A stretch of 64,000 nt of DNA from Naegleria gruberi (Eukaryota), in the NCBI GenBank assembly GCA_000004985.1, contig GG738876.1, one strand, 5' to 3'. The translations under genes and the position numbers were made by a program. Under the pieces are notes generated by a model, which saw nothing but the letters and a program-made list of their open reading frames with translations, was not told where the DNA came from and searched no databases. Shown here piece after piece: positions 18,127 through 33,994 of this stretch; position 1 is the stretch's first letter; each line of letters begins with the position of its first letter.

Positions 18127-20919
18127 ATGTCTCTAAAGGAACCAATGACTTCTTGCGTTCCTGATGCTCTCCAAAGTGTATTGCCGTCATCTCATCAACA
18201 CAAAGCTGGTGATGGTATGATTTGTAATAGGAATGATATTGTTCCAAATTTCAATCATGTTCTTCAACAGGGAACAAGAACATGTGGCCAAATTTCTATC
18301 ATAGACAACAGTAAAAATTCAAACAAACATTTAAGTGAAGAGTTCCTACAACAACATCCAAAGTCCTTGTTTGGCATACATGCCAATAGTAATTTTCTTT
18401 ACTGTCATAATCAATTTGATGATGGTGCCAAAGAAATTACTTGTAACAATATGTTCAATAGACCAAACACATGTACAGAGACCCAAATAAGACAATCAAT
18501 AATCTCGAAGGAAATGGAGATGCATGACAACACAATGGACACTGCTCTTCCTCCATTACGATTTAACATAACTGACCTTAATGAATCAAATTCACCACAT
18601 TTGTCGAGATGCAGCCTACAGCAAAAAATTGAAGTATCCTTCACAAGTCAAAAGTTGAAAGATGAATCAAGAAGATCACCACCAACCTCACAAGGTGCAT
18701 CATCATGCATAACTAGGAATAATAGAGAACCAAATGCAAACTCTGACCTTGCATCTTTAAATATGGAAAGTTCAAACTACAGACCCCTACCTTACGAATA
18801 TGTTCCATCTGTACAGTCAAGCCTTAAATCAGAACCGCTAACAACCAAACATAACATTTACAGAGGAGGAAAAACAAATCTGTCACCACCTGATTTAGGT
18901 ATCACGACTAACAATGATACAACGCTCAATTCTCTAAGGTCGCCTCCCCAACGCCAACAACAACAAGACCAGCACCAAGAGCAAAATCATTCTTTGGGAA
19001 CTCGGGATGATCAGCAAGTAGTCAACGACACAAACAGAACCACCAAATATTCATTTCAACAAATGCAAAAACAACCACCTCTGGTAGAGATGAATCCTGT
19101 CGCTAGTGGTGGATCTTTTGCAACTAAGCAGCTTAGTACTCCTCCTACTCGTAACAACAACAACAATACAAGTACTCATAGTATGATGAGTCAGAGTAGT
19201 TGTACTCCAATTGCTTCTTCAAATCCTCTCTATTCATATAATCATCAACAATCCGCATCTCTTAATAACACTTGCCCACCACCTGCTAATTCATCAGCTC
19301 ATAATCCTCCTTACAGCAATAATAATTTGCTCATGGTATCACAACCACACCATAATTCCTACAGAAATCTTCCTTCAACAATATCACGTGCTTCAACAGC
19401 AACAGGATCAACACTCAGAGATCATGATACAGTGATACAAAGTTCAGCCTCTTCCCTACTACTCCTATCAGAACAAAAACAACCATCTTATATTGGTGGT
19501 GGTTTGATAGCTAATGATTCCGCTAGAAGTTTAGAAGCTGTTGCTGCTGTTCCTGTTGCCCAGGGCTGTACTAGTGAGAGAATCCCTACAACCCAATCAT
19601 CCTTGCATTATTCATCCATTCCACACTCTTCCTCTTCTTTACTGGGCAAAAAGCAAAGAATGACTTCAACAATAACTGCGAGTACTAATATTCCTCAATC
19701 ATCTTTGAACGCTCCTCAACAACCAACTAATCCTCTCTCCAATAATAATTCAATCAAACCTCACCAAACAACTAATATTAAGTTTCATCTCCTTGATGAT
19801 CCAAATCTTAAACAAGATGAGCATAGAAGCAATTTTGTAAGAATTGATGAGGAACAGATACGAAAAGTATTCCATCTTACTCAGAGACAAGCAGCTGCTT
19901 TTTTAGGAGTTAGTTTATCTACACTCAAAAGACGATTCTATGAAATGAGAGAAAGTTTAGGAATGGATAAGTGGCCTACTACAGCAAATGGTACTACAAC
20001 AATACCAGCAACACAAACTAGTGCATGTGTTGTTGGCCCAACCAATTCATCTTCGAGTAATTTGAGTAACAACAATGCAACTTCAAGAAATAATAAGGGG
20101 TCTAGAAAGAATTCTCTTCAATCTGATCAAACTTTGAATATTCCAACAACTCCTCTTACGAATTTGAATGATAATCATTCCTCCTATCATATTGATCCAT
20201 ATAACAATGCTTCCTCCCGTAGAACATCAGTAACTTCTCAAGACGAGTTTACTTATCAAAAAATTGGAACACCACATAATGGAAATTCCTCAATAATGAA
20301 TCAAAATAATCATTCTTCGTATTTACCTCAATCAACAAATAATCTCCCTGCTGTAAATATTTCACTTCCTCCAATAGTTACTTCCCCTTATTCTAACCCA
20401 ACTTCAAAACCCCAACTTCCAAACAATGATAGTCTCGACAATTTTCTTTCTAGGTATGCTCCTAAATCTTTCGATGATATTGCCCAAGATTCTGACAAGT
20501 GCCTTCCAGTTTCAACCACTTTAAAGAGAAGAACCAATGTTTTTGGGCAAGGTCATGATCCAATTCTTATTGCTAAAATGTTTTCTGAAGAGACAACAAC
20601 TAGTAATTCAAGAAAAAGATCCTATCCAAATATTTCTACAATTGAAAATAAGGAATTTGAGAAGGACAGTTACTCATCTCAATTACCAAGACATTCCAGT
20701 TTCAGTAGTCAAGGAAGTATGGATGGCTCATTTGAACCACCAAGAAAAGTCAACAAGGCATTCCCAATTAATAAGAGAGGAAGCACAGACGAAAATGCAG
20801 AACCAAAAACAAATAATCCATCCAACATGAGTTTTATCCTCAATGAAGGAGTTAAGGACCCAACTCATCTTGATAAGGAAGAATGGAATACACTAATGGA
20901 AGCATTTAAAAAACAATAA
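18127..20919 (+). CDS. large low-complexity protein with a C-terminal RWP-RK-like domain (KWP variant); putative transcription regulator
   Basis: 930 aa, single exon. The candidate domain is EEQIRKVFHLTQRQAAAFLGVSLSTLKRRFYEMRESLGMDKWP. Compare the RWP-RK core L..FHL...AA..LGV..T.LKR.CR..GI.RWP: this copy has a 4-aa insertion and K in place of R. The rest is S/T/N/Q/P-rich. Confidence 0.55.
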   Translation: MSLKEPMTSCVPDALQSVLPSSHQHKAGDGMICNRNDIVPNFNHVLQQGTRTCGQISIIDNSKNSNKHLSEEFLQQHPKSLFGIHANSNFLYCHNQFDDGAKEITCNNMFNRPNTCTETQIRQSIISKEMEMHDNTMDTALPPLRFNITDLNESNSPHLSRCSLQQKIEVSFTSQKLKDESRRSPPTSQGASSCITRNNREPNANSDLASLNMESSNYRPLPYEYVPSVQSSLKSEPLTTKHNIYRGGKTNLSPPDLGITTNNDTTLNSLRSPPQRQQQQDQHQEQNHSLGTRDDQQVVNDTNRTTKYSFQQMQKQPPLVEMNPVASGGSFATKQLSTPPTRNNNNNTSTHSMMSQSSCTPIASSNPLYSYNHQQSASLNNTCPPPANSSAHNPPYSNNNLLMVSQPHHNSYRNLPSTISRASTATGSTLRDHDTVIQSSASSLLLLSEQKQPSYIGGGLIANDSARSLEAVAAVPVAQGCTSERIPTTQSSLHYSSIPHSSSSLLGKKQRMTSTITASTNIPQSSLNAPQQPTNPLSNNNSIKPHQTTNIKFHLLDDPNLKQDEHRSNFVRIDEEQIRKVFHLTQRQAAAFLGVSLSTLKRRFYEMRESLGMDKWPTTANGTTTIPATQTSACVVGPTNSSSSNLSNNNATSRNNKGSRKNSLQSDQTLNIPTTPLTNLNDNHSSYHIDPYNNASSRRTSVTSQDEFTYQKIGTPHNGNSSIMNQNNHSSYLPQSTNNLPAVNISLPPIVTSPYSNPTSKPQLPNNDSLDNFLSRYAPKSFDDIAQDSDKCLPVSTTLKRRTNVFGQGHDPILIAKMFSEETTTSNSRKRSYPNISTIENKEFEKDSYSSQLPRHSSFSSQGSMDGSFEPPRKVNKAFPINKRGSTDENAEPKTNNPSNMSFILNEGVKDPTHLDKEEWNTLMEAFKKQ

Positions 20920-21163: not shown

Positions 21164-23236
21164 ATGTCATCAACAATGAACAACAGCAACAGGGAGGAGG
21201 TAACGCCTCTGATACAGAACACTACTAGTGTAGTATCATCAACATCGATAAATAATGGCAATTATCAACAACAAGACACAACACTGATTAGGAGGAATGT
21301 ATCTCCTTCTACATTAAAAAGAGCTGATATTGGAAAAGACTATTATACAGACAATCATAGTAATCGCTCTAGCTCTAGTGATTTATCTAACCTCGAGAAA
21401 CAACCAATTTACAAAGCTAAAGGAACTAAAAAACAAAAATTTCTATTCCATTTCTTTAATATTTCATGCCCACTTTTCATTGTAGTACTGGTTGCTTTAG
21501 GACTGGGAGTGGGATTGATTTTTATACTGTCGAGGACACAAACTGAAGTACAACCAACTGGTACTAGGGCCGCTGTGGCAAGTGATAGTACGATTTGTTC
21601 CGAAATGGGATTGAAAGTCATAAAGGAAAAGAAAGGAAATGCTGTTGATGCAGCCATTGTAGTTGCTTTATGTTTGGGTGTCACTAGACCATTTGCTAGT
21701 GGAATAGGTGGAGGTGGATTTATTACTATTTTCATGAATGAAACAAAGACTGTGGATTTTATTAATTCAAGAGAAACTGCTCCTAGTGCTGCCAGTCAGG
21801 ATATGTATGAAAATAATTATGATGAAAGCGTATTTGGTGGAAAGTCCATTGCTGTTTATGGAGAAATTAGAGGATTACATACAGCTCACAAACTCTATGG
21901 TAAATTACCTTGGAAGGAGTTATTCACTGATGTTATCAATATTGCCAGAAATGGTTGGATTGTTGAGCCGTTGTTGGCTGTGCGATTATCACAGGATGAT
22001 ATTCTTAAATTCCCAACATTGGTACAATTTACAACCATTGGTTCTGATGGAAAGAGAAGAGTTTATCATGAAGGTGAATTAATTAAGAGAACTGATTTGG
22101 CAAATACTTTGGAGAAAATTGCTTCAGATGGTCCAAACATTCTCTATGAAGGTCCAATTGCTCAAAAGATTGTAGAAGAAATACAACAACAAGGTGGCAT
22201 TATTACATTGGATGATTTGAAGAACTATCAACCTGAAAGACCTTTCTATGATGAAAATCCAATTATTTCTCAAAAAGACATGACATTGGAATTGAATGAT
22301 TTTAAGGTGATTTTACCTCCACCACCATCTGCTGGACCTGTTATCAAGTTTATTTTGAGTATTTTGAATAATTTCAAGATTGGTGATAATTCACCAATGG
22401 GTCTTAACTATCACTATATTTTGGAAGCTTTGAAATTTGGATTTGGACATAGATCCAATCTAGGAGATGTTAATTTCTTACCTAAGGAAAATGTTACAAA
22501 ATATATCATTAATCAATTACTAAGTGATAGTTATGCCTCTAGTATTGCATCTGAGAGGGTTTCTCCATCAAGAACATTCCCATGGTCACATTATTATTCA
22601 GATAATTATGCACCTGTTAAGGATAAGGGTACATCCCATTTCTCTGTTATTGATGAAGATGGAAACTCTGTTGCCATGACCACTACAGTCAACCATAACT
22701 TTGGAAGTAAGGTTGCTAGTGCATCAACAGGTATTGTCTTTAATAACCAAATGAATGATTTCACAGTAGATCTTCACAAACCAAATCAATTCGGATTACC
22801 ACCATCTGCAGCTAATGTTATTGCTCCAGGCAAACGACCATTGAGCTCAATGTCACCTGCTATTTTCCTTGATAAGAGTGGAAATAGGGTCAAGTATATT
22901 ATTGGAGCTTCAGGAGGACCAACAATTATCAGTGCAATTATTGAAGTTTTTTATTCAATTGAAAAGTTTAAAGTCCAACCAAATCTCGCAGTTGCACTTC
23001 CAAGACTTCATGCTCAACCTGGTTCAGATGTAGTCAAAATGGAAGAGGGTTTCAATAGACAAGTTATCACTGCTCTACAAGAAAAGGGACATACCTTTGA
23101 ACCTGTTCAAATTCTTCCAGATGGCCATACTATAGGATGCTGTCAAGTCATTCAAGTTAGCAGCACTGAAAATGACCAAAATCTTTTCCTTCCTGGAACA
23201 GATCCAAGAAAATTAGGTAGTCCCGCTTGCTTTTAA
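21164..23236 (+). CDS. gamma-glutamyltranspeptidase (GGT, Ntn-hydrolase), type II membrane anchored
   Basis: 690 aa. N-terminal signal-anchor FHFFNISCPLFIVVLVALGLGVGLIF. Autocatalytic and catalytic region TSHFSVIDEDGNSVAMTTTVNHNFGSKV. PLSSMSPAIF and GASGGPTIISAI motifs are typical of GGT. Confidence 0.85.
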   Translation: MSSTMNNSNREEVTPLIQNTTSVVSSTSINNGNYQQQDTTLIRRNVSPSTLKRADIGKDYYTDNHSNRSSSSDLSNLEKQPIYKAKGTKKQKFLFHFFNISCPLFIVVLVALGLGVGLIFILSRTQTEVQPTGTRAAVASDSTICSEMGLKVIKEKKGNAVDAAIVVALCLGVTRPFASGIGGGGFITIFMNETKTVDFINSRETAPSAASQDMYENNYDESVFGGKSIAVYGEIRGLHTAHKLYGKLPWKELFTDVINIARNGWIVEPLLAVRLSQDDILKFPTLVQFTTIGSDGKRRVYHEGELIKRTDLANTLEKIASDGPNILYEGPIAQKIVEEIQQQGGIITLDDLKNYQPERPFYDENPIISQKDMTLELNDFKVILPPPPSAGPVIKFILSILNNFKIGDNSPMGLNYHYILEALKFGFGHRSNLGDVNFLPKENVTKYIINQLLSDSYASSIASERVSPSRTFPWSHYYSDNYAPVKDKGTSHFSVIDEDGNSVAMTTTVNHNFGSKVASASTGIVFNNQMNDFTVDLHKPNQFGLPPSAANVIAPGKRPLSSMSPAIFLDKSGNRVKYIIGASGGPTIISAIIEVFYSIEKFKVQPNLAVALPRLHAQPGSDVVKMEEGFNRQVITALQEKGHTFEPVQILPDGHTIGCCQVIQVSSTENDQNLFLPGTDPRKLGSPACF

Positions 23237-23803
23237 TAAATACCTTTTAAGGTGTATAGGATTCTTTATAATTTCTCATCTGGTCAGAGATTCCTCAATT
23301 GCACATTTGCAACACTCTTGTATTAGAAAGGAGAATATTGAATAAGGATGTTGTCGTTGTTTTCATTGAGATAGAGATTAGAATTTTATTTGTGAATGTA
23401 AAACAAGGTAATTTTAGAGTCAATAAGGATGAGTTGAAAGAGATAGAGCTACTATGCGATTGTATCTTGATTTTCATGGATCCTGATGGTTTATGAAAAA
23501 ACCGAACTGGTATTTTGAAAATTGACCAAATTCGAATGCATATCCCAAAACACATTATCTTTCGACATTAATGGTCCATTACATCAATTCAATAAATACG
23601 AATCAAAGTCTCGCTTTAAATTGTACTATCACAATCCATCAAAATGTGTGTTTTTTTAACGCGACACGAATTGGATCCCTACATGTAATTCCATCTCTTC
23701 ACTGGTTTAGATACCATTCAATTACGATTTTTGTGAGCCCACACCACTTGTTTCTATTGAGTTTTTTACCTTGTACAGTCGAAAAAAACACCACAACACA
23801 ATA

Positions 23804-25480
23804 ATGTTCCAATCTCAAATACCTTCTCAACAACTCTCAGCGATATGTATGAGAGAACAACAATCTCAACAGCCACAACAACATTATCCTAGAGATGCAT
23901 TAGAACTAAATCAACGATTCAAGGATCATCAACAATTTAAAGGTGATCATCCTTTTCATCACAAAGAGCTAGATTCATTAATTTATCAACAACCTCAACA
24001 ATACAATAAGGAAGATTTTGCTTTTCAAAACTCAGAAAACACTACAGCTCCATTAAATGTGATGGCAGTAATTTCAACAAGTTCCTCAATAGAACCAAGG
24101 TTAAGACTGGACATGTACAACAATGCATCTGGCCATTCCTCCTCGCAAGCGGCCACAGATTCAATCAAAATGGAAACAAAACAAGAGCTACCCATGCAGA
24201 TGCTCAATAAGGATAACAAAAATTCTCTCATAACCATGAGCACAACTCCCCATACTAATATTAACAGCAATAACCAACATGCAACTAATTTATTTCAACA
24301 TCATGTGAACATGCAGAATAATAACCATTCAGCTTCACCTATGAACCATCACCATTCTACAGATTCGATATCCTCACTCAATCATAATACTACAACATGT
24401 AAACAAAATTCTCAAAATTCCTCATGTCACATCCAACCATCCACTCAACAACAACCCTTCTTCCACAATTCACAGCCAATTAATCAAGAGACGCAACCAC
24501 AACAAAACACAGTTCAAGACAATTCAAAAAATAGGCCACAAAGGAGAAATAGTAACAGCTCCTGTTCTCCAAAGAAACGAACCACATTTGGGATGTCTAA
24601 TCATTATCAACAACAACATGTTGGTGGCACATCAGTAAGAGGTGATGGTGGCCAACAATCTTACATGCCATTTAATGCTTCTCCATCCAAATATAATAAC
24701 AATTTAAACACATCTACATGTGGTGAAATAATATCGAATAGCAATGGAACCACTTCTGAATATCATCAATTTATGAACAATAATTATTCATTGCAACAAC
24801 GAATTGAAACATCATCTCGATCAACAACTTCCCTACAAAATGTTTCTCCAATGCATGCTCAAAAGTCCGTGCAAGTTTCACCACCTCCATCTTCAAACAA
24901 CAGCACCACCACATTCAACATTCAACAGGAAAAGATTAAAAAACCAAGAAAAACCATCAAGAGAAAGTATCAATTCAAGAATGTCAAGTCAGGAGAGAAT
25001 GTTAGATCTAATTCCTCAAGTCCATCTTCTCCATCCTCCTCTCAGAATCAACATTCTAATGATTCTAAATGTAATTCCATTGAGACTGTATCCTATTATA
25101 CAACTACAGATGGAAAGGAATTGGATTTAACTGGCTATTATCAACATCAATTACAGTATACAACTTTTGATTTCTATAATAATTCATCAGTATCAATTGT
25201 AAAGGCAAATCCAACCTTTGATGTAAAGAGTTTCAAGAGGAGTGTTGATTCAATTTCAAAGGATGAATTACTCAGAGTTTTACATTTAACTCAACAACAG
25301 GCGAGTACAATATTGGGCTGCAGTGTTTCAACCATTAAAAGAAGATTTTATGGTTTGAGAAACGAGTTGGGTTTAACCAAGTGGCCAAATAATTACTTTG
25401 AATATAGTCATATGAAATTGTTTGAGGAGATTTATCCACTTTCCTTAAACTTTATTTTGAATAAGGGTGAGAGCAGATAG
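23804..25480 (+). CDS. paralogous low-complexity protein with C-terminal RWP-RK-like (KWP) domain
   Basis: The track ORF starts at a TTG at 23771; the first ATG is 23804 (MFQSQIPSQQ...). The C-terminal block is KDELLRVLHLTQQQASTILGCSVSTIKRRFYGLRNELGLTKWPNNYFEY. It is collinear with the domain of the 18127..20919 protein. Confidence 0.55.
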   Translation: MFQSQIPSQQLSAICMREQQSQQPQQHYPRDALELNQRFKDHQQFKGDHPFHHKELDSLIYQQPQQYNKEDFAFQNSENTTAPLNVMAVISTSSSIEPRLRLDMYNNASGHSSSQAATDSIKMETKQELPMQMLNKDNKNSLITMSTTPHTNINSNNQHATNLFQHHVNMQNNNHSASPMNHHHSTDSISSLNHNTTTCKQNSQNSSCHIQPSTQQQPFFHNSQPINQETQPQQNTVQDNSKNRPQRRNSNSSCSPKKRTTFGMSNHYQQQHVGGTSVRGDGGQQSYMPFNASPSKYNNNLNTSTCGEIISNSNGTTSEYHQFMNNNYSLQQRIETSSRSTTSLQNVSPMHAQKSVQVSPPPSSNNSTTTFNIQQEKIKKPRKTIKRKYQFKNVKSGENVRSNSSSPSSPSSSQNQHSNDSKCNSIETVSYYTTTDGKELDLTGYYQHQLQYTTFDFYNNSSVSIVKANPTFDVKSFKRSVDSISKDELLRVLHLTQQQASTILGCSVSTIKRRFYGLRNELGLTKWPNNYFEYSHMKLFEEIYPLSLNFILNKGESR

Positions 25481-25650: not shown

Positions 25651-25898
25651 CTCATACTATAGGTCAGAGATATTCCAAAAAAAAAGAGTTCATTAAAGCC
25701 GTAATTTTCTAGAAATCGAAAAACCACATGTGGTTTTATACAATGAGCATGTCACCTGCTTATGGATAAATACTTGTCTTCAATACGAGTGAATCCTGCT
25801 TGTAAAGAAAAACTAATACCACTTCGGCATCAAGTGACTTTTTGATATTCATCCAGCACCAGGAAAGACTAAGAACCTTACAGATACAAATCACATAT

Positions 25899-28276
25899 TC
25901 ATTTACTCATATCAATGGAAATATCATCAGTGAGGGTTTGGGTGCTGTGTGTAGAGATAGATGAAATACTCTCTCTTATCTTTTTGATAGCAAAGTCTAG
26001 TAAACCAACGATTGGAAAATCAAGCCATATTTTCTCATCATTATTCATTTCGTTTGTCCATAGAATCAATCTTTGAAGGAGGAATGATTTTTCTTCACTA
26101 GAAATTTGGGATGGATTAGTAAGGCATTTGGAGAGCTCTTGCCTTAGTTCTATCCTCTCTTTATCACATGGTTCAATATAGATTGGTAAAGTGAGCATTG
26201 AGACAGACTCTCTAAATTGGTTTCCTAATTCAAAGTGTTGGACATAGTACCTTCTTGGTGAGTTAGAATCAATGGCCCAGTAAAGGGTATGCGTTCCCTC
26301 TAAGCCTTTGAGCTCAAAATTACCCATATTATCAAAGTGAATCTGTCCATCTTGGACTAGTTCTTTAAATTGCTCTAGTTCGTCTTTGAAAGTCGTAATA
26401 AAAGGAGTATCTTTAGGCAGACTATTGGTAGATGAAAGAGCTGTGGCGCGGTGCTTAATAAAACTTTGGACATCTGAACTGACATATACTCTACCACCAT
26501 GTGATTTGCTTTCAGTTCTTGCAGCTTGGTTGACTGCAGTGCCAAAGTAATCATATCTCTTGGTGGTTGGGTCAAATTGGGATTCAATTTCTTTTCCAAA
26601 GTGAACGCCCATTTTAACTCTTGGTCCTTTGTAAATAATTTCATTATTCCACTTGACTTCTTTCATGTCTGGAAATTCCAACATTTCAGGTGTCCAATGT
26701 CCTTTCAATAAGCCGTTTTGAATAGCAAAACAGCAACCTAGTGCTTCTATTGGATCATTGAATGCGATCATAAAACTGTCTGATTGGGTTTTCACTTCAT
26801 ATCCTTTAAACTTTCGAATATTTTCTCGCACTATTCTATGGTGAATGGCCAATACTTTCTTCATCAAATCTGAATCTAAAGTCCACATTAAGGATGAATT
26901 TTGTATGTGAGTGAAAACAATGCAAATAGGAGCTACTTTTGGAGCTAGACGATTTTCTCTCTTTCTAATCGAATTCTTTCTAACAACCCATCCAATCAAG
27001 AACACAAAAATTCCAACCAATAATATTGCAATAGTAAAACTGACAACACTGATGGAAATAATGAATTCGTTTCTCTTCTCAATTGGTAATACAGGCTCAG
27101 CAGTCCAAGCTTTCCACTTGGCTGTATTGTTTGGGTTTGATAACCACTTACAAGCAGCATCTTCTAAAGTCATTGAATTGTAAGCAACATATCCCATCAT
27201 GGTTACTTGATCTCTACCTCTATAATTCAAATTTTTAAGAAAGTTTTGAACACTTGAAGAGAGAGAAGAGACAGCACTCGTTTGGAGCTTACTATATGTT
27301 GACAAAGGGTAATCACAATCAACCAATCCATTGGCAATATTGTGAGCTGTATGACAGCTATCAGTAAATTGAGGAAGATAGATTCTAGATGGTGGATTAG
27401 GTCTACTGAATAATTGATGTGGAAACCAAAAATATGAAACCATCTCTTTTCGTTGTTGTTGAGCGTTTTGTAAATTTTCAATGAGATAGGTTTCAGTATC
27501 ATTATCAGGTGCATATTCCAACTGCAAATTCAACTTTAAATTCTTGATAATCTGATCATCATAATTCACCCAAGTTTTAGAGCCACTGACCATTCTTGTC
27601 ATGTTTGAAAGTCTAAAGTATCTGTAGTTATTTTGAACTGCATCCTTCATGAAATTTGGAATGAAAAACCCAATTTGGCCACTCGGACCCAAATCGCCAA
27701 TGTCTGTAATATGTTTACCATTAACCACATATTTTCTAAGATGAAAAGATTACTTGTTAGAAAGATCAGCGCATGCACTTACTTGTAATTTTCAAAGTTA
27801 GATAATTTCCAGTATTCTAACAACGCAATTGGACGTGTGGCTCCTTCCTTTTCCATAAGTTCCAAAGAATCCACAATATTTAGTTTTAAAATATCAACGC
27901 AAACTCCTAATTTTTCCTCGAGTATTATTGTTGCAAGAGCATTATTCATCGAGCTCGCCAGCCAATTATTTTCAATAAGAGTTATTCTTGGTGAAAAAGA
28001 GGAACAGTGGCTTGAAGATGCATCTTCAGGTAGACAACTGGCAACTGTTTTTCTAGTCGACGAAATATGTTGATACTGATGGGTTTGCATGTTTTCCAAT
28101 GGCGATCCACTCACAAAATAATAAGTTTCGTAATCGTGATTGTCAAGCTTATCAGCACCAATAAACATGCTAATAACAAATACAAAAAGTATTAATTTTG
28201 TGATAATGGATAATCTGGACCGTTTCCAATAATGTAATCCAACAAAACTACTACTACTAATATTCCTCGTAATCAT
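25899..28276 (-). CDS. receptor-type class III adenylyl cyclase, paralog 1: signal peptide, about 390-aa extracellular domain, 1 TM, catalytic domain; 2 exons 28276(or 28516)..27783 and 27735..25899
   Basis: The catalytic domain shows the adenine-specifying Lys in KGYEVKTQSDSFM and Asp in KRYDYFGTAVNQAARTES, which suggests ATP rather than GTP specificity. TM helix is FTIAILLVGIFVFLIGWVV. Exon 1 carries a hydrophobic signal-like segment (LSIITKLILFVFVISMFIGA). Intron 27782..27736 is 47 nt, GTAAGT...CTTAG, phase 2, with a CTAAC branch. The junction reads ...LEYWKLSNFENY-K-KYVVNGKHITDIGDLGP. The start codon is ambiguous: in-frame ATGs lie at 28516, 28276 and others. Confidence 0.7.
26590..26990. 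repeat. about 400-bp segment nearly identical at nucleotide level to 31160..31560 in the paralogous cyclase gene
   Basis: One run is 100% identical: ctcttggtcctttgtaaataatttcattattccacttgacttctttcatgtctggaaattccaacatttcaggtgtccaat, at 26616..26698 versus 31187..31269. The flanks are about 90% identical. The rest of the two genes is much more diverged. This fits gene conversion between tandem paralogs. Confidence 0.6.
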
Positions 28277-28835
28277 AATATTCAATATAAAATAGCAAAT
28301 CCACCACATAATTCTCGAATCAAACATGATAAAATCACAATATGAAATTTCATCCATTTGTATTTCAAACTTTCTTTGATTAATCGTGTATTCATCATCT
28401 CCTACTTCTTGTTCATTCCGTCTTCCCTCCAGAAGCAGCATTAATACGTTGTTGTTGCCAGCACAAGTTGTATCGGAAAGAACATGTTTGCCCATTTTTT
28501 TTCGTTCTCTCGTCATGTAAGATCGTGATGCCTAGCCTTATCTTCTTTTTTATACCAAATCCAGCTTGCGCGCCAAAGATTCTCTCATTACAGCGAATTT
28601 AGAGAGTTTCATTAAGGAAATGATGCAATAGAATATTGTGTTATTTATTTGTAATGGATTATATTCTATCATCTCCCAGTGCAGTTCTTCGACATTTCGT
28701 TTATATTGAATTGAAAGAAGTATTTATGCTTGAAGTATAGATAACTTACAATTTTGTAACTTTTAAATTCTGAATGAGTTGAGTAATGTTGTGATCGAAA
28801 ATGAACTTTTTTTCTAAAAATAAAAATATAAAAAA

Positions 28836-30368
28836 ATGGCATCAAAATCATCAAAAGAAACAAGAGGTTCCCATGTTGATGCAATCAGAGAAGAATTAGA
28901 ACAAGGCAAGGGACGTGATAATTTGATCGGTAAAGAATTTATTAAAAATAATAACAGAAATTATTTGGAATCTGGGTTAAAAACAAATATTAGACCCTTG
29001 ACAGAAAGTGATGATTATGAAATTTATTTTAGCGGCAAATCAACGAATGGCGCATTATTGACAGGATCAACGGAACCAAAGCAATTGGATGGGTTTGAAA
29101 AGTTTACAAAATATGATAGTGATAATGCAAAGAAATTATCAATCCCGAAAGATCAAGCTTTGAAATTTATTGATATTGGACTACAATTTACAGTGATAAT
29201 GACAACTAGGAATGAAGCTTTTTTATATGGAGACTTTGTATATGGATCAAGTTCGGCTTCTATTAATCCTCTTGGAAGGCAATTATCAATTCTAATGACG
29301 CTCACACCAGAAGTTAAACTTAATTATTTCCCTGATGAACCTGTTGCCATGTTGTGTGGAGAACAATTTGTTGCAGTATTGGATAGCTGTAATAGATTGT
29401 GGTATTGTGGTATTGAAAAGTTTGGAACTGCTAATAGTAGTTGTACTTATGATTTTGTGGAAATTGGATTGAAAAAATATTTGGAGACTGAATTTGTTGA
29501 TGAACCTACACATATCACTCACTTTAGAGTTGGAGGAAGACACTTGTGTTTTTGTATTAATAATAGGACTATTATTTCAACAGGTAAGTGACAATTCTTT
29601 CCATTTCATTCGAATACTCATATTATTCAAAGGTGCAAACTATTATGGACAGGTAGGTCATTAGCTTTAAATTAAATACTCAATCCAAAAGTTGGGAATT
29701 ATAAACACACCAGATTTGACACCACCAGTTCCCCCAAGTACTGTACTGACTGTTGCTAGTACACTTTCTCGCTATACATTCGTTAAAACTTGGAATGCAG
29801 ATGGAAAGTATAGAGTAAGAGACGTTGCTTGTTCTGGAAATATGACAGCTATTCTAACAGGTAAGCTCTAATCATAACACCCAAATTTTAACATTAATTA
29901 TTAGAATGTGGAAAATTATTTAAAACCTCTAATGCAGCTATTGCATCTGAGTCAATTGAATCAGTTGTTCTGGATGGATTTTCACTTACTACCATCTCTG
30001 GTAATTGGACTCATATTCTGGCACATACAAGCAAAAACCAAATGATGGGCGTTACGGATAATCATGTTACTGAATTCTTTAGCGAATCTCCTCTAAAGAA
30101 TTGTGATAATTTACACATCTCAACAGGAACCAATTCTAACAATACCTATTTTATTTACTCAAATAATGAATTATATGAACCACATAATCCAAAGGCAGTT
30201 CTCAAATCTTCCCTACCAATAGTTGTTTGTAAATTGACCTCTGAAGCAACTATGGTTTTATGTATGAATTTTAAGAGCAACAAGTCAATTCTTGCAATGA
30301 AACGAAACCTTCTCCAATGTACAGTATCACAAGGGCTATCAGATGTTCTAATCAATGCCCAACAATAA
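28836..30368 (+). CDS. RCC1-repeat-like protein, 4 exons: 28836..29583, 29633..29652 (20-nt micro-exon), 29692..29860, 29905..30368
   Basis: Splicing produces an RCC1 signature: ...NNRTIISTG|ANYYGQ|LGIINTPDL.... Introns are 49, 39 and 44 nt (donors GTAAGT, GTAGGT, GTAAGC). An alternative in-frame acceptor at 29937 would give a 77-nt last intron. The gene lies between the two tandem cyclase paralogs on the opposite strand. Confidence 0.5.
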
Positions 30369-30370
30369 AT

Positions 30371-32832
30371 TTATGCTCCAGATTGAATCAATTCTTCAGG
30401 GCATGACATTACTGCGATAGAACTAGAAGAAGAAAGCGACTCTTTTCTACAGGGTTGAGCGACACTATTTCGTCTTTTCCTGTTATCTGGACGGATAATT
30501 GTATCTTCATATGCATATTCTTTGTTATCTGAAACAATGTTATCCATTTCAGCAGGAAGATAATGAGAGATGACAATTGGTATGAGATGCTTCAATTCCA
30601 ATTCAGTCCATGCATCCTTTTCTTCTTCGGTATCATTATTCCACAATACAAGCCTATGCAGAAGTTTACTCTTCTCATTTTCATTCCATTTCGATGGATC
30701 ACTTATACATGATGCACACGATTGTTTCAATTCCATTCGTTCCTTATCAATTTTCTCTCTCAACAATGGAACTGATAATCCAGAGTCAATTCTAACATGA
30801 GGCAACAATTCGAATTGTTGAATGTAGGAAGTTCGAGGGGAAGTTGTATCCATAATCCAAAACAAAGTGTGATTACCTTCCAATCCTTTCAAAATAAAGT
30901 TTCCCATATTTTCGAATTGGATTTTTCCAGAGTAAAGCAATTGTTTGAATTGAAAGATTGGATCCTTATGAATGGGAAACCCCTTATCCATGCAAATATT
31001 GCAACGAGAAGCTCCTCCCATTTGATGCTTTAGGTGGTCGTGAATATTTGAGCAAATGTAAATTCTTCCTCCTTGAGCTTGATTTTCAGTTCTAGATGCT
31101 TGGTTGACCGTCGTGCCAAAGTAATCATATCTCTTGGTGGTTGGATCAAAATGAGCTTCCACTTCACTGCCATAATGAAGGCCCATTCTAACTCTTGGTC
31201 CTTTGTAAATAATTTCATTATTCCACTTGACTTCTTTCATGTCTGGAAATTCCAACATTTCAGGTGTCCAATTTCCTTTCAACAAATCATTCTGAATAGC
31301 AAAACAACAACCAATTGCTTCTATTGGGTCACTGAAGGCAATCATAAAGCTGTCTGATTGAGTTTTCACTTCATATCCTTTAAACTTTCGAATATTGTCT
31401 CGAACAATTTTGTGATGAATGGTAACAACTTTCTTCATCAAATCTGAATCCAAAGTCCACAACAGTGAAGCATTCTGAATATGAGTGAAAACAATGCAAA
31501 TAGGTGGTGCTTTTGGGGCCAATCTATTTTCTCTCTTTCTAATCGAATTCTTTCGAATGCAAAATCCACAGCAAAAAACACAAAAACCAATTAGTATAAT
31601 AGCAAGTGTAAACCCCACAACAGTCATTGAAATAATAAAGGCATTACTCTTCTCCGGTTGAAAAGGTGGCTCTGAAATCCAACTCTTCCATCTCTCTGTA
31701 TTATTGCCTTTCAAAATCCAAGTACAGGCAGCATCCTCTTTCGACATTTTATCATACGAAACTAAGCCTAACAGTTCAATCTGGTCAGCATTCGTCAGTT
31801 TCATCCTTTCCAAAAAGTTTTGCACTTTTTCAGGAAAACTCAACACTGCCCTAGTTTGCAGTTTACTGTAAGTAGTCATGGCAAAATCACAATCCACCAA
31901 ATTATTCTCCACATTGTGAGGTGATACACATTCTGCAGTAAATGGTGGAAGTGTCACACGTTGTGGAGCATTAGGTCTACTGAATAATTGATGAGGTGTG
32001 AAAAAGTAGGAAACCAGCTGCTTTCTCTCCCGTTCTGCATTTCTCAACTCTTGAATCAGAAACTTCTCAGTGTAATTCTGAGGAGGATATTCCAAAACGA
32101 GATTCAATTTCAGATTTTTAATAACCTGCTCATCAAAGTTGACCCAAGTTTTTGCTCCACTAATGTAACGTGTAGCATTCACTGTACGATAGTATCGATA
32201 ATTCAAGCTCAGTGGATTATCTATAGCCATCCAATTAGGAATATACCATCCAACTTGTCCTAATGGACCTAAATCTCCAATATCCATTACATTTCGTCCA
32301 TTTAACACATACTTTCTAAAACATTTCAATAAGAAACATTCAATTATTATTCCACCATTCCAGAAAACAATCCAAAAATCAATCACAGTTTAATTATTTA
32401 TCAAGTAAAAATTGAGATTTCTTACCTGTAAACATCCAAATGATTTAACTTCCAAAATTCTAACAAGACGTAGGGAACCTCATCTCCTCTACTCTCCATC
32501 ACTCTAAGAGATTCATCCACGCCATATTCCTCAACATCGACACATACTCCAAGTACTTCCTCGAGGAAAACTTTTGCTATTTGAATGTTCATCGTTGTTG
32601 CTAACCAATTATATTGGATTAGTTTAATTCTGGGCGAAAGTGGTGTGCATGCAGTTCCTGAGGCGGTATGAAGTGAAGGAAGGCATGATGATGATGTTGA
32701 ATATGATGTTGGTGAAACATGTTGTTGGTTTGATGGTTTAGAATGTGCAAACAAGATGACTAAACACAAGACTAAACTCAATCGAAAGAAGTAACGAAAT
32801 AGAAGGGAATAATTGCGTCGCCGTTTCTTCAT
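30371..32832 (-). CDS. receptor-type class III adenylyl cyclase, paralog 2; 2 exons 32832..32426 and 32315..30371
   Basis: Signal peptide MKKRRRNYSLLFRYFFRLSLVLCLVILFAHS. The probable start at 32832 is internal to track ORF 32422..33132. Same architecture and same intron position and phase as paralog 1. Intron 32425..32316 is 110 nt, GTAAGA...TTTTAG. The junction reads ...LEFWKLNHLDVY-R-KYVLNGRNVMDIGDLGP. Catalytic motifs: KGYEVKTQSDSFMIAF and RYDYFGTTVNQASRTE. Confidence 0.7.
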
Positions 32833-33994
32833 TGTTTCTTTTCTCAAAAACCACACAAACAACCAATACAGTACCAACTCCAGTTTGGATTCGTTCAGTT
32901 TCCCTTTATCTATATTAGGACATGAGACATATAAATATTGAGGACCAAGTTTCCTCCACATGTTGAGAGATTCTATCCCGCATGTTGGGATCCATGTCTT
33001 CTCATTTCGTACAAAATTATTAAGGCCTACGACGTTTAGTGATTGCTTGTTCTGTACAGTTTCATTTGAGGAAATAGATATTGATAAAAAAGATGAGAAG
33101 GATAGTAATTGATCACAAGATAATAGTTTCATTTGTGCAAGTGATGATAAAGGTAATTACTAGAGCTGGTTTCGGATTGGTTGGTTTCGAATAATATTGG
33201 TTAACAGATGTAAGTTGATGATGATAAAATAACCTGTGTGCTATCATGTTATCTGGTTTCGGCAGTTTTTTAAATGATTATTGTGTTCTATCTTTCTAAT
33301 AATTATTGTGATCAATTTCGAATACACATGTATTATCAGAAACGTACGTTACTATTTTGAACTCTCTACGAAAGTAATAGGCAGTTAATGGCAAGACATT
33401 ATGACAATCATTTGATTGAAAAAGCAAGAATAGTTTCAGTTTCCAATAATGAAATCTGCAAATCGTACAAGTTCATTCTCTCTGATTTTCAAAAGACCTT
33501 TTCAATAATCAAATCTTCCAAAATCAACACGTTCCCCTTACAACCCGAACCATTAAGCTTTTCAAGTTTTTTATCCATACTTTCGAATTTTCTTTCGAAT
33601 TTAATTTCTTATTAAGAAGCACAAGAGACCATTGTATTTTTCCAAAACAACACTTTAAATAAAACTTTTCTTTTTCACTTTTGGCTATTGGGAGTAATTT
33701 CACAAACCACTCTCTATTTGTCGATTTACAACAATATCCAAAATTCTCATCCAACACTATTAATATTTTTTTACAAACACTTGAAAAAATGTTTGAAAAA
33801 ATGTTATGAAAATTTTCTCAAATCTCTTTCGATTGATTTAGTAATTAATTGTTAAATTTATTGAAATTCAACCTTTTTAAAAAGACAAGCGAAGTTATTG
33901 GTCTTGCTTGTTCATAGATGGCATATGCACGTAAAGTTGTCACAACTCGATACCAAATTAAACAACTGCAAGATTTCGAATAAGATTAAAAAAA

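What the first reader, a model, noticed from the sequence alone, without database searches (positions are those of the whole stretch)
26590..26990. Gene-conversion-like patch of near-identical nucleotide sequence between the two cyclase paralogs
About 400 bp covering the TM/juxtamembrane region and the N-terminal half of the catalytic domain is about 90% identical between 26590..26990 and 31160..31560. One stretch of 83 bp is 100% identical (26616..26698 = 31187..31269). The ectodomains and C-terminal tails of the same genes are only about 50-60% identical at protein level. Such a sharp local jump in identity is the footprint of recent gene conversion between tandem paralogs, not of purifying selection alone. 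It also creates spurious conserved alternative-frame ORFs in the track (26375..26644/31030..31218 and 26526..26711/31073..31357).
Basis: seen in the sequence. Interest (0 to 1): 0.55.

Follow-up and report, generated by a model that had tools for sequence, protein, structure and literature searches.

The report
Gene-conversion patch between tandem Naegleria cyclases
Two neighbouring receptor-type cyclase genes of the amoeba Naegleria gruberi, otherwise diverged to saturation at silent sites, share a roughly 480-bp catalytic-domain segment with far fewer silent differences and an 84-bp stretch with none, which is an ordinary case of one gene copy overwriting part of the other.

Summary
The window is Naegleria gruberi. 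Gene B is NAEGRDRAFT_69019, and A is its tandem paralog 4,574 bp away on the same strand. 26590-26990 is 85.8% identical to 31164-31564, not about 90%. The exact run is 84 bp (26615-26698 = 31189-31272). Elsewhere in the exon identity is 48-62%.

Silent sites decide the question. A-B dS is about 2 or not computable in the ectodomain and tail, 0.5-0.9 in the patch flanks, and 0 in the core. Codon identity at conserved residues is 44% outside the patch, 72% in the flanks and 23/23 in the core. Saturated comparisons to N. fowleri and N. lovaniensis orthologs give about 50% everywhere. The N. fowleri-N. lovaniensis ortholog pairs and two unlinked N. fowleri paralogs show no silent-site dip there. 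No RNA structure or Rfam family was found.

The best explanation is interlocus gene conversion: an older, mosaic homogenisation over about 26511-26990, and a much younger tract of at least 84 bp. Protein-level constraint also contributes a large share of the identity jump. This is a new instance of a textbook process and of low interest. No genome close enough for a tree-based confirmation was found.

The parts
25899..27735 (-). Gene A, large 3' exon. It encodes the C-terminal part of the OpuAC-like ectodomain, the TM helix (26982-27065), the class III cyclase domain and the tail. The stop codon is included.
   Evidence: ORF. Pfam PF00211 E = 6.5e-20, aa 265-430. The AG acceptor at 27737-27736 was read.
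27736..27782 (-). Gene A intron: GT..AG, 47 nt, phase 2 (inferred).
   Evidence: Sequence read. Splicing joins ...ENYK to KYVVNGKH in frame, at the position homologous to the intron of B.
27783..28516 (-). Gene A upstream exon: N-terminal hydrophobic segment and the first part of the ectodomain. The 5' limit is uncertain.
   Evidence: ORF. Its last 87 residues are 47% identical to the corresponding exon of B.
30371..32315 (-). Gene B (NAEGRDRAFT_69019, XP_002675774.1), large 3' exon, with the same architecture as A.
   Evidence: 100% identical over 638 aa to P0001. Pfam PF00211 E = 1.4e-20 and weak OpuAC. Acceptor read.
32316..32425 (-). Gene B intron: GT..AG, 110 nt, phase 2 (inferred).
   Evidence: There is no nucleotide similarity to the intron of A.
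32426..33132 (-). Gene B upstream exon, which is missing from the public 638-aa protein model.
26511..26990 (-). Homogenised patch in A, running from the juxtamembrane segment through most of the cyclase domain. Silent divergence is reduced and mosaic.
   Evidence: Maximum-scoring segment 26511-26828, with 72/86 identical codons. Patch minus core is 72/100 against 91/207 outside, p = 5e-6. dS is 0.90 and 0.52 against 2 or more outside. Runs test p = 0.012.
31085..31564 (-). Homogenised patch in B, the counterpart of 26511-26990 at offset 4574.
   Evidence: D1, spacing 4574.
26615..26698 (-). Core in A: 84 bp identical to B, encoding WTPEMLEFPDMKEVKWNNEIIYKGPRV. It is bounded by nonsynonymous differences at 26699 (His/Asn) and 26614 (Lys/Arg).
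   Evidence: There are 0 differences at 14 synonymous sites, and 7/7 fourfold sites are identical.
31189..31272 (-). Core in B: 84 bp identical to A.
27312..27419 (-). Possible second, older conversion tract in the ectodomain. Its counterpart is 31886-31993.
   Evidence: 20/23 identical codons at conserved residues. A segment score this high occurred in 40 of 5000 null simulations. It overlaps repeat finder family D2.
28836..30368 (+). RCC1-like gene fragments (ORFs 28836-29591 and 30042-30368) lying between the two paralogs on the opposite strand.
   Evidence: Pfam WD40_RLD E = 1.8e-6 for the first ORF.

Best explanation
A and B are old, same-strand tandem paralogs in Naegleria gruberi. Each encodes a receptor-type class III cyclase with an OpuAC-like ectodomain, one TM helix and a GRESAG4-like catalytic domain. 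They arose by a lineage-specific duplication of the gene orthologous to N. fowleri FDP41_001624 and N. lovaniensis C9374_007416.

After silent sites had saturated, non-reciprocal homologous recombination (interlocus gene conversion) copied sequence between the two genes. This is most simply explained as repair of a break in one copy using the other copy, 4.6 kb away, as template. It happened in the one segment that protein-level constraint had kept similar enough to pair.

At least two ages of event are visible:
- Older or repeated short tracts give a mosaic across about 26511-26990, with dS 0.5-0.9.
- One much younger tract of at least 84 bp (26615-26698) has dS 0.

Shown here: the non-uniform silent divergence, its specificity to the A-B pair, and the internal position of the patch between diverged sequence on both sides. 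Inferred: the recombination mechanism, the number of events and their direction.
For: **Silent divergence by region**
- Identity profile and dS by region are. dS is 2.04 in the ectodomain plus TM and not computable in the tail. It is 0.90 in the 5' flank, 0.52 in the 3' flank and 0 in the core.
- Fourfold-site identity is 16/45 in the ectodomain and 5/20 in the tail. It is 17/23 and 6/8 in the flanks and 7/7 in the core.

**Codon identity at conserved residues**
- Core 23/23. The run of 27 identical codons was reached in 0 of 20,000 global shuffles and 193 of 20,000 within-patch shuffles.
- The 5' flank is 56/80 against a saturated baseline of 0.507, p = 3.6e-4.

**Controls**
- A or B against N. 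fowleri/N. lovaniensis orthologs gives about 0.5 codon identity in every region.
- Nf-Nl ortholog pairs have core dS of 1.0 and 2.0, which is not reduced.
- Unlinked N. fowleri paralogs give 0.48-0.55 everywhere, despite 69-82% protein identity in this domain.
- The core peptide is only 54-68% identical to the N. fowleri/N. lovaniensis orthologs, so it is not an unusually constrained peptide.

**Structure of the locus**
- The patch is flanked on both sides by diverged coding sequence. Introns and intergenic DNA share nothing. This excludes a recent whole-gene duplication or a single unequal crossover.
- A CH-domain neighbour gene links the locus to the N. fowleri and N. lovaniensis loci.

**Other**
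- Naegleria encodes the recombination and mismatch-repair genes needed (PMC9928731).
- No RNA family or stable fold was found in the core.
Against: - No genome close enough to N. gruberi was found, so the classical tree-incongruence test could not be run.
- A and B are each other's closest relatives in every region, so only branch lengths differ, not topology.
- The core has only about 14 synonymous sites. Its separation from the already elevated flanks rests on p of about 0.01.
- There is no GC3 rise in the patch, so no GC-biased-conversion signature.
- Part of the protein-level excess similarity could reflect less saturation in a slow region rather than a younger age.
- The assembly itself could not be checked against reads.
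Confidence: 0.82

Rival explanations
1. No exchange occurred. Strong purifying selection on the catalytic domain, plus codon-usage preference at conserved residues, by itself produces the high nucleotide identity.
For: pN is 0.076 in the 5' flank against 0.29-0.38 outside, so protein constraint does account for a large share of the raw identity jump. The genome is AT-rich with biased codon use, which gives a baseline of about 50% codon identity even at saturation.
Against: Equally or more conserved comparisons across the same domain stay at the baseline of about 0.5 codon identity. These are A or B against orthologs, and N. fowleri paralog against paralog. A-B gives 72/100 and 23/23 there. The core peptide is not especially conserved among orthologs.
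Confidence: 0.07
2. The 84-bp core, perhaps with its flanks, carries a nucleotide-level function specific to N. gruberi. Examples are a small-RNA target, an RNA structure, an internal regulatory element or an antisense product. Under this view it is held identical in both genes by selection.
For: The run is bounded on both sides by amino-acid-changing differences. Short alternative-frame ORFs overlap it in both copies.
Against: Fold z-scores range from -0.18 to +0.45 on both strands and in both copies. There was no Rfam match at E up to 1. The N. fowleri/N. lovaniensis orthologs show no silent-site conservation in the core, with dS 1.0 and 2.0. The overlapping ORFs are 61-94 aa, low-complexity, and are expected whenever the DNA is identical.
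Confidence: 0.05
3. Assembly or consensus artefact. Reads from the two similar segments were mixed, creating a falsely identical stretch.
For: None from these tools. It is a generic risk for paralogs about 85% identical.
Against: The surrounding 400 bp keeps 57 paralog-specific differences at a constant offset with no indels. A collapse would be expected to affect the whole similar block or to break the contig, not to yield a clean in-frame 84 bp.
Confidence: 0.03

Closest known systems
Interlocus (ectopic) gene conversion between tandem paralogs, as described for globin, tubulin, opsin and many other duplicated genes (established knowledge)
   Same: An internal tract of sharply reduced silent divergence lies between two linked, same-orientation paralogs. 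It is flanked by anciently diverged sequence and sits in the most conserved, and so most pairing-competent, part of the genes. The tract length is tens to hundreds of bp.
   Different: There is no GC-biased signature. The donor and direction are unknown. No population or sister-species data were available to show the tree switch.
Trypanosoma brucei receptor-type adenylate cyclases GRESAG 4.1 / 4.3 (PDB 1FX2, 1FX4)
   Same: These are the best solved-structure matches to the catalytic region of A, E = 3e-26. The overall plan is the same: an extracellular binding-protein-like domain, one TM helix and a single class III catalytic domain. The motifs KTxxDSFMIA and DY(F/Y)G..N.AARTES are shared. The 84-bp core falls in the segment where the trypanosome enzymes carry a longer insertion. 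From memory, Bieger and Essen 2001 called this the delta-subdomain; this was not checked here.
   Different: The first metal-binding Asp of FTDIESST is His in A and B (FTHIQNSS/AS). The ectodomain here matches OpuAC (PF04069) in the orthologs. The insertion is shorter. No enzymatic data exist.
N. fowleri FDP41_001624 and N. lovaniensis C9374_007416 (syntenic orthologs)
   Same: The domain architecture is the same (PF04069 + PF00211). A CH-domain gene lies next to the cyclase on the opposite strand.
   Different: They are single-copy at that locus in the fetched regions. They are 45-47% identical to A. They show no silent-site dip in the core.

Membership tests
Interlocus gene-conversion tract | Two paralogous copies exist in one genome that could act as donor and acceptor. 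| tested here: met
   A and B lie 4,574 bp apart on the same strand and are 58% identical over the large exon.
Interlocus gene-conversion tract | Silent-site divergence is locally much lower than in the rest of the gene pair. | tested here: met
   dS is 0 in the core and 0.5-0.9 in the flanks, against 2 or more, or not computable, outside.
Interlocus gene-conversion tract | The tract is internal, with diverged sequence on both sides, so it is not a single crossover or a young whole-gene duplicate. | tested here: met
   Identity is 48% 3' of the patch and 62% 5' of it. Introns and intergenic DNA are unrelated.
Interlocus gene-conversion tract | The low silent divergence is not shared by orthologs or other paralogs, so it is not sequence-level constraint. 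| tested here: met
   The Nf-Nl ortholog pairs and the unlinked N. fowleri paralog pair show baseline or higher divergence in the core.
Interlocus gene-conversion tract | Tree incongruence: inside the tract the paralogs of one species group together, while outside it orthologs group together. | not testable with these tools
   No species that split after the duplication was found. The nearest homologs are 44-47% identical.
Interlocus gene-conversion tract | GC-biased signature (raised GC3) in converted sequence. This is frequent but not obligatory. | tested here: not met
   GC3 is 0.29-0.32 in the 5' flank and core, against 0.30-0.33 outside. Only the 28-codon 3' flank is higher, at 0.39-0.43.
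Class III nucleotidyl cyclase, receptor type (GRESAG4-like) | Cyclase homology domain (Pfam PF00211) above the gathering score. | tested here: met
   71.9 and 74.1 bits against a cut-off of 21.9. PDB best hits are 1FX4 and 1FX2.
Class III nucleotidyl cyclase, receptor type (GRESAG4-like) | Both metal-binding aspartates are present. | tested here: not met
   The first Asp (FTDIESST in 1FX2/1FX4) aligns to His in A and B. The second (GDSFM) is kept as SDSFM.
Class III nucleotidyl cyclase, receptor type (GRESAG4-like) | Extracellular ligand-binding domain followed by a single TM helix, then the catalytic domain. | tested here: met
   A hydrophobic 28-residue segment lies at 26982-27065, between the ectodomain and the cyclase domain. 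OpuAC is weak in B but precomputed for the orthologs.
Class III nucleotidyl cyclase, receptor type (GRESAG4-like) | Cyclase activity and substrate (ATP or GTP). | not testable with these tools
   Only alignment-based hints are available: the Lys of VKT and the Asp of DYFG are conserved.

The most novel reading that the evidence does not exclude
The 84-bp identity is not just a passive conversion scar. Under this reading it is either a nucleotide-level element kept identical in both receptor cyclase genes, for example a shared small-RNA or regulatory target. Or it marks a recurrent, selected exchange hotspot that shuffles catalytic-domain segments among Naegleria's very large cyclase family, in the way trypanosome surface-gene families build mosaics.
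Probability: 0.05. Interest if true: 0.5.

Novelty: new member of a known kind. Interest (0 to 1): 0.2.

Why it matters
This is a clean, quantified example of interlocus gene conversion in a heterolobosean, a lineage where recombination is mostly inferred from gene inventories. It has two practical consequences. First, trees and divergence dates for Naegleria's expanded cyclase family will be misleading if catalytic-domain segments are included without checking for conversion. Second, conserved alternative-frame ORFs in such patches should not be read as genes. It does not reveal a new mechanism.

Tried and rejected
- **Closer relatives.** I looked for N. gruberi-clade sequence for a tree test. 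The protein search gave nothing closer than 47% apart from gene B itself. Two metagenome scans, one by peptide patterns and one with a 31-mer of the core, found nothing. Exact-product look-ups for A, B and P0001 found nothing.
- **RNA explanations.** Rfam at E up to 1 gave no match over 25800-33200. Folding of the core and flanks on both strands gave z-scores near 0.
- **Protein-distance ratio.** Protein identity, A-B against the outgroups, was compared by region; my own rough correction of those figures suggests a younger patch. I do not rely on it, because saturation in the fast regions inflates the ratio there.
- **Nei-Gojobori pS above 1 in windows.** This shows the method breaks down at saturation. 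I therefore used codon identity at conserved residues, with empirical saturated baselines.
- **GC-biased conversion signature.** Absent.
- **Literature.** No paper was found that describes conversion among Naegleria cyclases.

Full report
**What the locus is.** The window is Naegleria gruberi nuclear DNA. The ORF at 30371-32386 (minus strand) is 100% identical over 638 residues to the public protein NAEGRDRAFT_69019 / XP_002675774.1. Two minus-strand genes share the same structure.
- Gene A has a large 3' exon at 25899-27735 and an upstream exon ending at 27783.
- Gene B has a large 3' exon at 30371-32315 and an upstream exon ending at 32426.
- Each has a GT..AG phase-2 intron at the homologous codon, 47 nt in A and 110 nt in B. 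I read the splice sites from the sequence, so they are inferred.
- Both carry a class III cyclase domain (PF00211, E about 1e-20).
- A 28-residue hydrophobic helix precedes the cyclase domain (26982-27065 in A).
- The ectodomain matches the OpuAC substrate-binding fold in the orthologs and weakly in B.
- The closest solved structures are the Trypanosoma brucei receptor adenylate cyclases GRESAG 4.3 and 4.1 (E = 3e-26).
- An RCC1-like gene lies between A and B on the other strand.

**Age and origin of the pair.** A CH-domain gene lies next to B on the opposite strand. The same arrangement is seen beside N. fowleri FDP41_001624 and N. lovaniensis C9374_007416, with an alcohol-dehydrogenase gene in between in those species. 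A and B are closer to each other (58% over the large exon) than to any homolog found (47% or less). They are therefore a tandem duplication in the N. gruberi lineage. The duplication is old. Introns and intergenic DNA share nothing; the only direct repeats at the 4,574-bp spacing lie inside the large exon. Silent sites outside the patch are saturated (see below).

**Checking the observation.** The two large exons align without indels at a constant offset of 4,574 bp through the region.
- The longest identical run is 84 bp, 26615-26698 = 31189-31272. The next longest runs are 35, 32 and 29 bp, all inside the patch.
- Identity over 26590-26990 is 344/401 = 85.8%. It is 48% at 25902-26499 and 62% at 27101-27728.
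- The TM helix is essentially outside the patch and is only 50% identical at protein level.
- The patch extends 3' to about 26511, so it covers most of the catalytic domain.
- The alternative-frame ORFs cited exist at exactly those coordinates.

The A-B results by region:

| Region | dS (Nei-Gojobori) | Fourfold sites identical |
|---|---|---|
| Ectodomain + TM | 2.04 | 16/45 |
| 5' flank, 26699-26990 | 0.90 | 17/23 |
| Core, 26615-26698 | 0.00 (14 synonymous sites) | 7/7 |
| 3' flank, 26531-26614 | 0.52 | 6/8 |
| Tail | not computable (pS 0.85) | 5/20 |

That estimator misbehaves at saturation, giving window pS above 1. I therefore also scored a simpler quantity: whether A and B use the same codon at columns where they share a degenerate amino acid. 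The A-B results:

| Region | Same codon |
|---|---|
| Ectodomain + TM | 66/131 (0.50) |
| 5' flank | 56/80 (0.70) |
| Core | 23/23 |
| 3' flank | 15/19 (0.79) |
| Tail | 25/74 (0.34) |

The empirical saturated baseline is A or B against three outgroup genes: the N. fowleri and N. lovaniensis orthologs and the Naegleria sp. contig (L002). From the counts, it pools to 0.507 in the 5' flank (183/361) and 0.504 in the 3' flank (59/117), and lies between 0.36 and 0.64 in the individual comparisons.
- The 5' flank exceeds its baseline with p = 3.6e-4, and the 3' flank with p = 0.011.
- Patch minus core (72/100) differs from outside (91/207) with Fisher p = 5e-6.
- The run of 27 consecutive identical codons (26607-26708) was never reached in 20,000 shuffles of all sites. 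It was reached in 193 of 20,000 shuffles restricted to the patch.
- The core is therefore probably a separate, younger event nested in an already homogenised zone.
- Identical and non-identical codons are clustered within the 5' flank (runs test p = 0.012; ectodomain and tail not significant). This fits several short tracts or patchy repair, not one uniform age.

**Controls against nucleotide-level constraint.**
- The N. fowleri/N. lovaniensis ortholog pairs have roughly uniform dS of 0.5-1.0. In the core their dS is 1.04 and 2.03, which is not reduced.
- Two unlinked N. fowleri paralogs are 69-82% identical in protein across this domain. They show baseline codon identity of 0.48-0.55 everywhere. 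Conservation of this domain does not by itself raise silent identity.
- The core peptide is only 54-68% identical to the N. fowleri/N. lovaniensis orthologs. The adjacent 3' flank is similarly conserved among orthologs but only 71% identical between A and B.
- No Rfam family matched at E up to 1.
- The core and its flanks fold no better than shuffles on either strand (z from -0.18 to +0.45).

**Mechanism.** The best-supported reading is interlocus gene conversion between two directly oriented paralogs 4.6 kb apart. A break in one copy would be repaired from the other, leaving a short non-reciprocal patch. An internal patch with diverged sequence on both sides excludes a single unequal crossover or a recent whole-gene duplication. 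The location makes sense. Only the catalytic domain, held similar by protein-level selection (pN 0.08 against 0.29-0.38), still offers the uninterrupted identity that recombination needs, so homogenisation there reinforces itself. Naegleria genomes encode the recombination and mismatch-repair genes required (PMC9928731).

As a rough calibration, codon identity in the flanks (0.70-0.79) is comparable to that between N. fowleri and N. lovaniensis orthologs (0.52-0.78). The older events are therefore about as old as that species split, and the core is much younger. The number of events, their direction and the repair pathway are inferred, not shown. No GC3 rise accompanies the patch.

**What remains open.** The classical confirmation could not be run. 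That test needs trees that switch from paralogs together inside the tract to orthologs together outside it. Nothing closer than 44-47% identity was found in the protein database, the assemblies or the metagenomes. An N. gruberi-specific RNA-level function of the core cannot be formally excluded. The assembly could not be checked against reads.

**Comparison with known things, and novelty.** This is a standard footprint of ectopic gene conversion as known from many tandem gene families. The genes are GRESAG4-like receptor cyclases, one of the large cyclase families reported for Naegleria: at least 81 cyclases across the genus (PMC9928731). I found no paper describing conversion among them. It is a new instance of a known process and mainly of practical relevance for phylogenies and annotation, so interest is low.

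Noticed in passing
window 26898-26915 (A) and 31472-31489 (B); L001, L004, L005, L006 orthologs: The first metal-binding aspartate of the class III cyclase motif is histidine in A, B and the N. fowleri/N. lovaniensis orthologs (FTHIQN). The trypanosome GRESAG4 motif is FTDIESST. The residue is serine in the Naegleria sp. contig L002 and aspartate in the environmental contig L007. These receptors may have altered metal use or be catalytically inactive.
   Followed up: partly
window 27312-27419 and 31886-31993: This is a second stretch, in the ectodomain, with 20/23 identical codons at conserved residues (about p = 0.008). It may be an older conversion tract.
   Followed up: partly
window 32426-33132 and 25899-28516: The public model of B (XP_002675774.1, 638 aa) starts at an internal Met. 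It omits the upstream exon that carries the N-terminal hydrophobic segment and the first part of the ectodomain. The homology search returned no protein corresponding to gene A, although its ORF is intact and under purifying selection.
   Followed up: partly
window 26614 and 26699: Both differences that bound the 84-bp identical run change the amino acid: Lys/Arg at 26614 and His/Asn at 26699. This may be chance, or selection may be keeping paralog-specific residues at the tract edges.
   Followed up: no
window 18127-20919 (+) and 23771-25480 (+): Two RWP-RK-domain ORFs flank a gamma-glutamyltranspeptidase gene (21164-23236). They are possibly another linked paralog pair.
   Followed up: no
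window 28836-30368 (+); L002 651-3260; L003 762-3371: An RCC1-like gene sits between A and B. In an unidentified Naegleria-like assembly (SRR29240419 / ERZ2098899) an RCC1-like gene also lies next to the homologous cyclase, but on the same strand as the cyclase.
   Followed up: no
window 26375-26644 (-), 26526-26711 (+), 31030-31218 (-), 31073-31357 (+): These are short alternative-frame ORFs (61-94 aa) that look conserved between the two loci. They overlap the homogenised DNA, have low-complexity products, and are mechanical by-products of the identity.
   Followed up: yes
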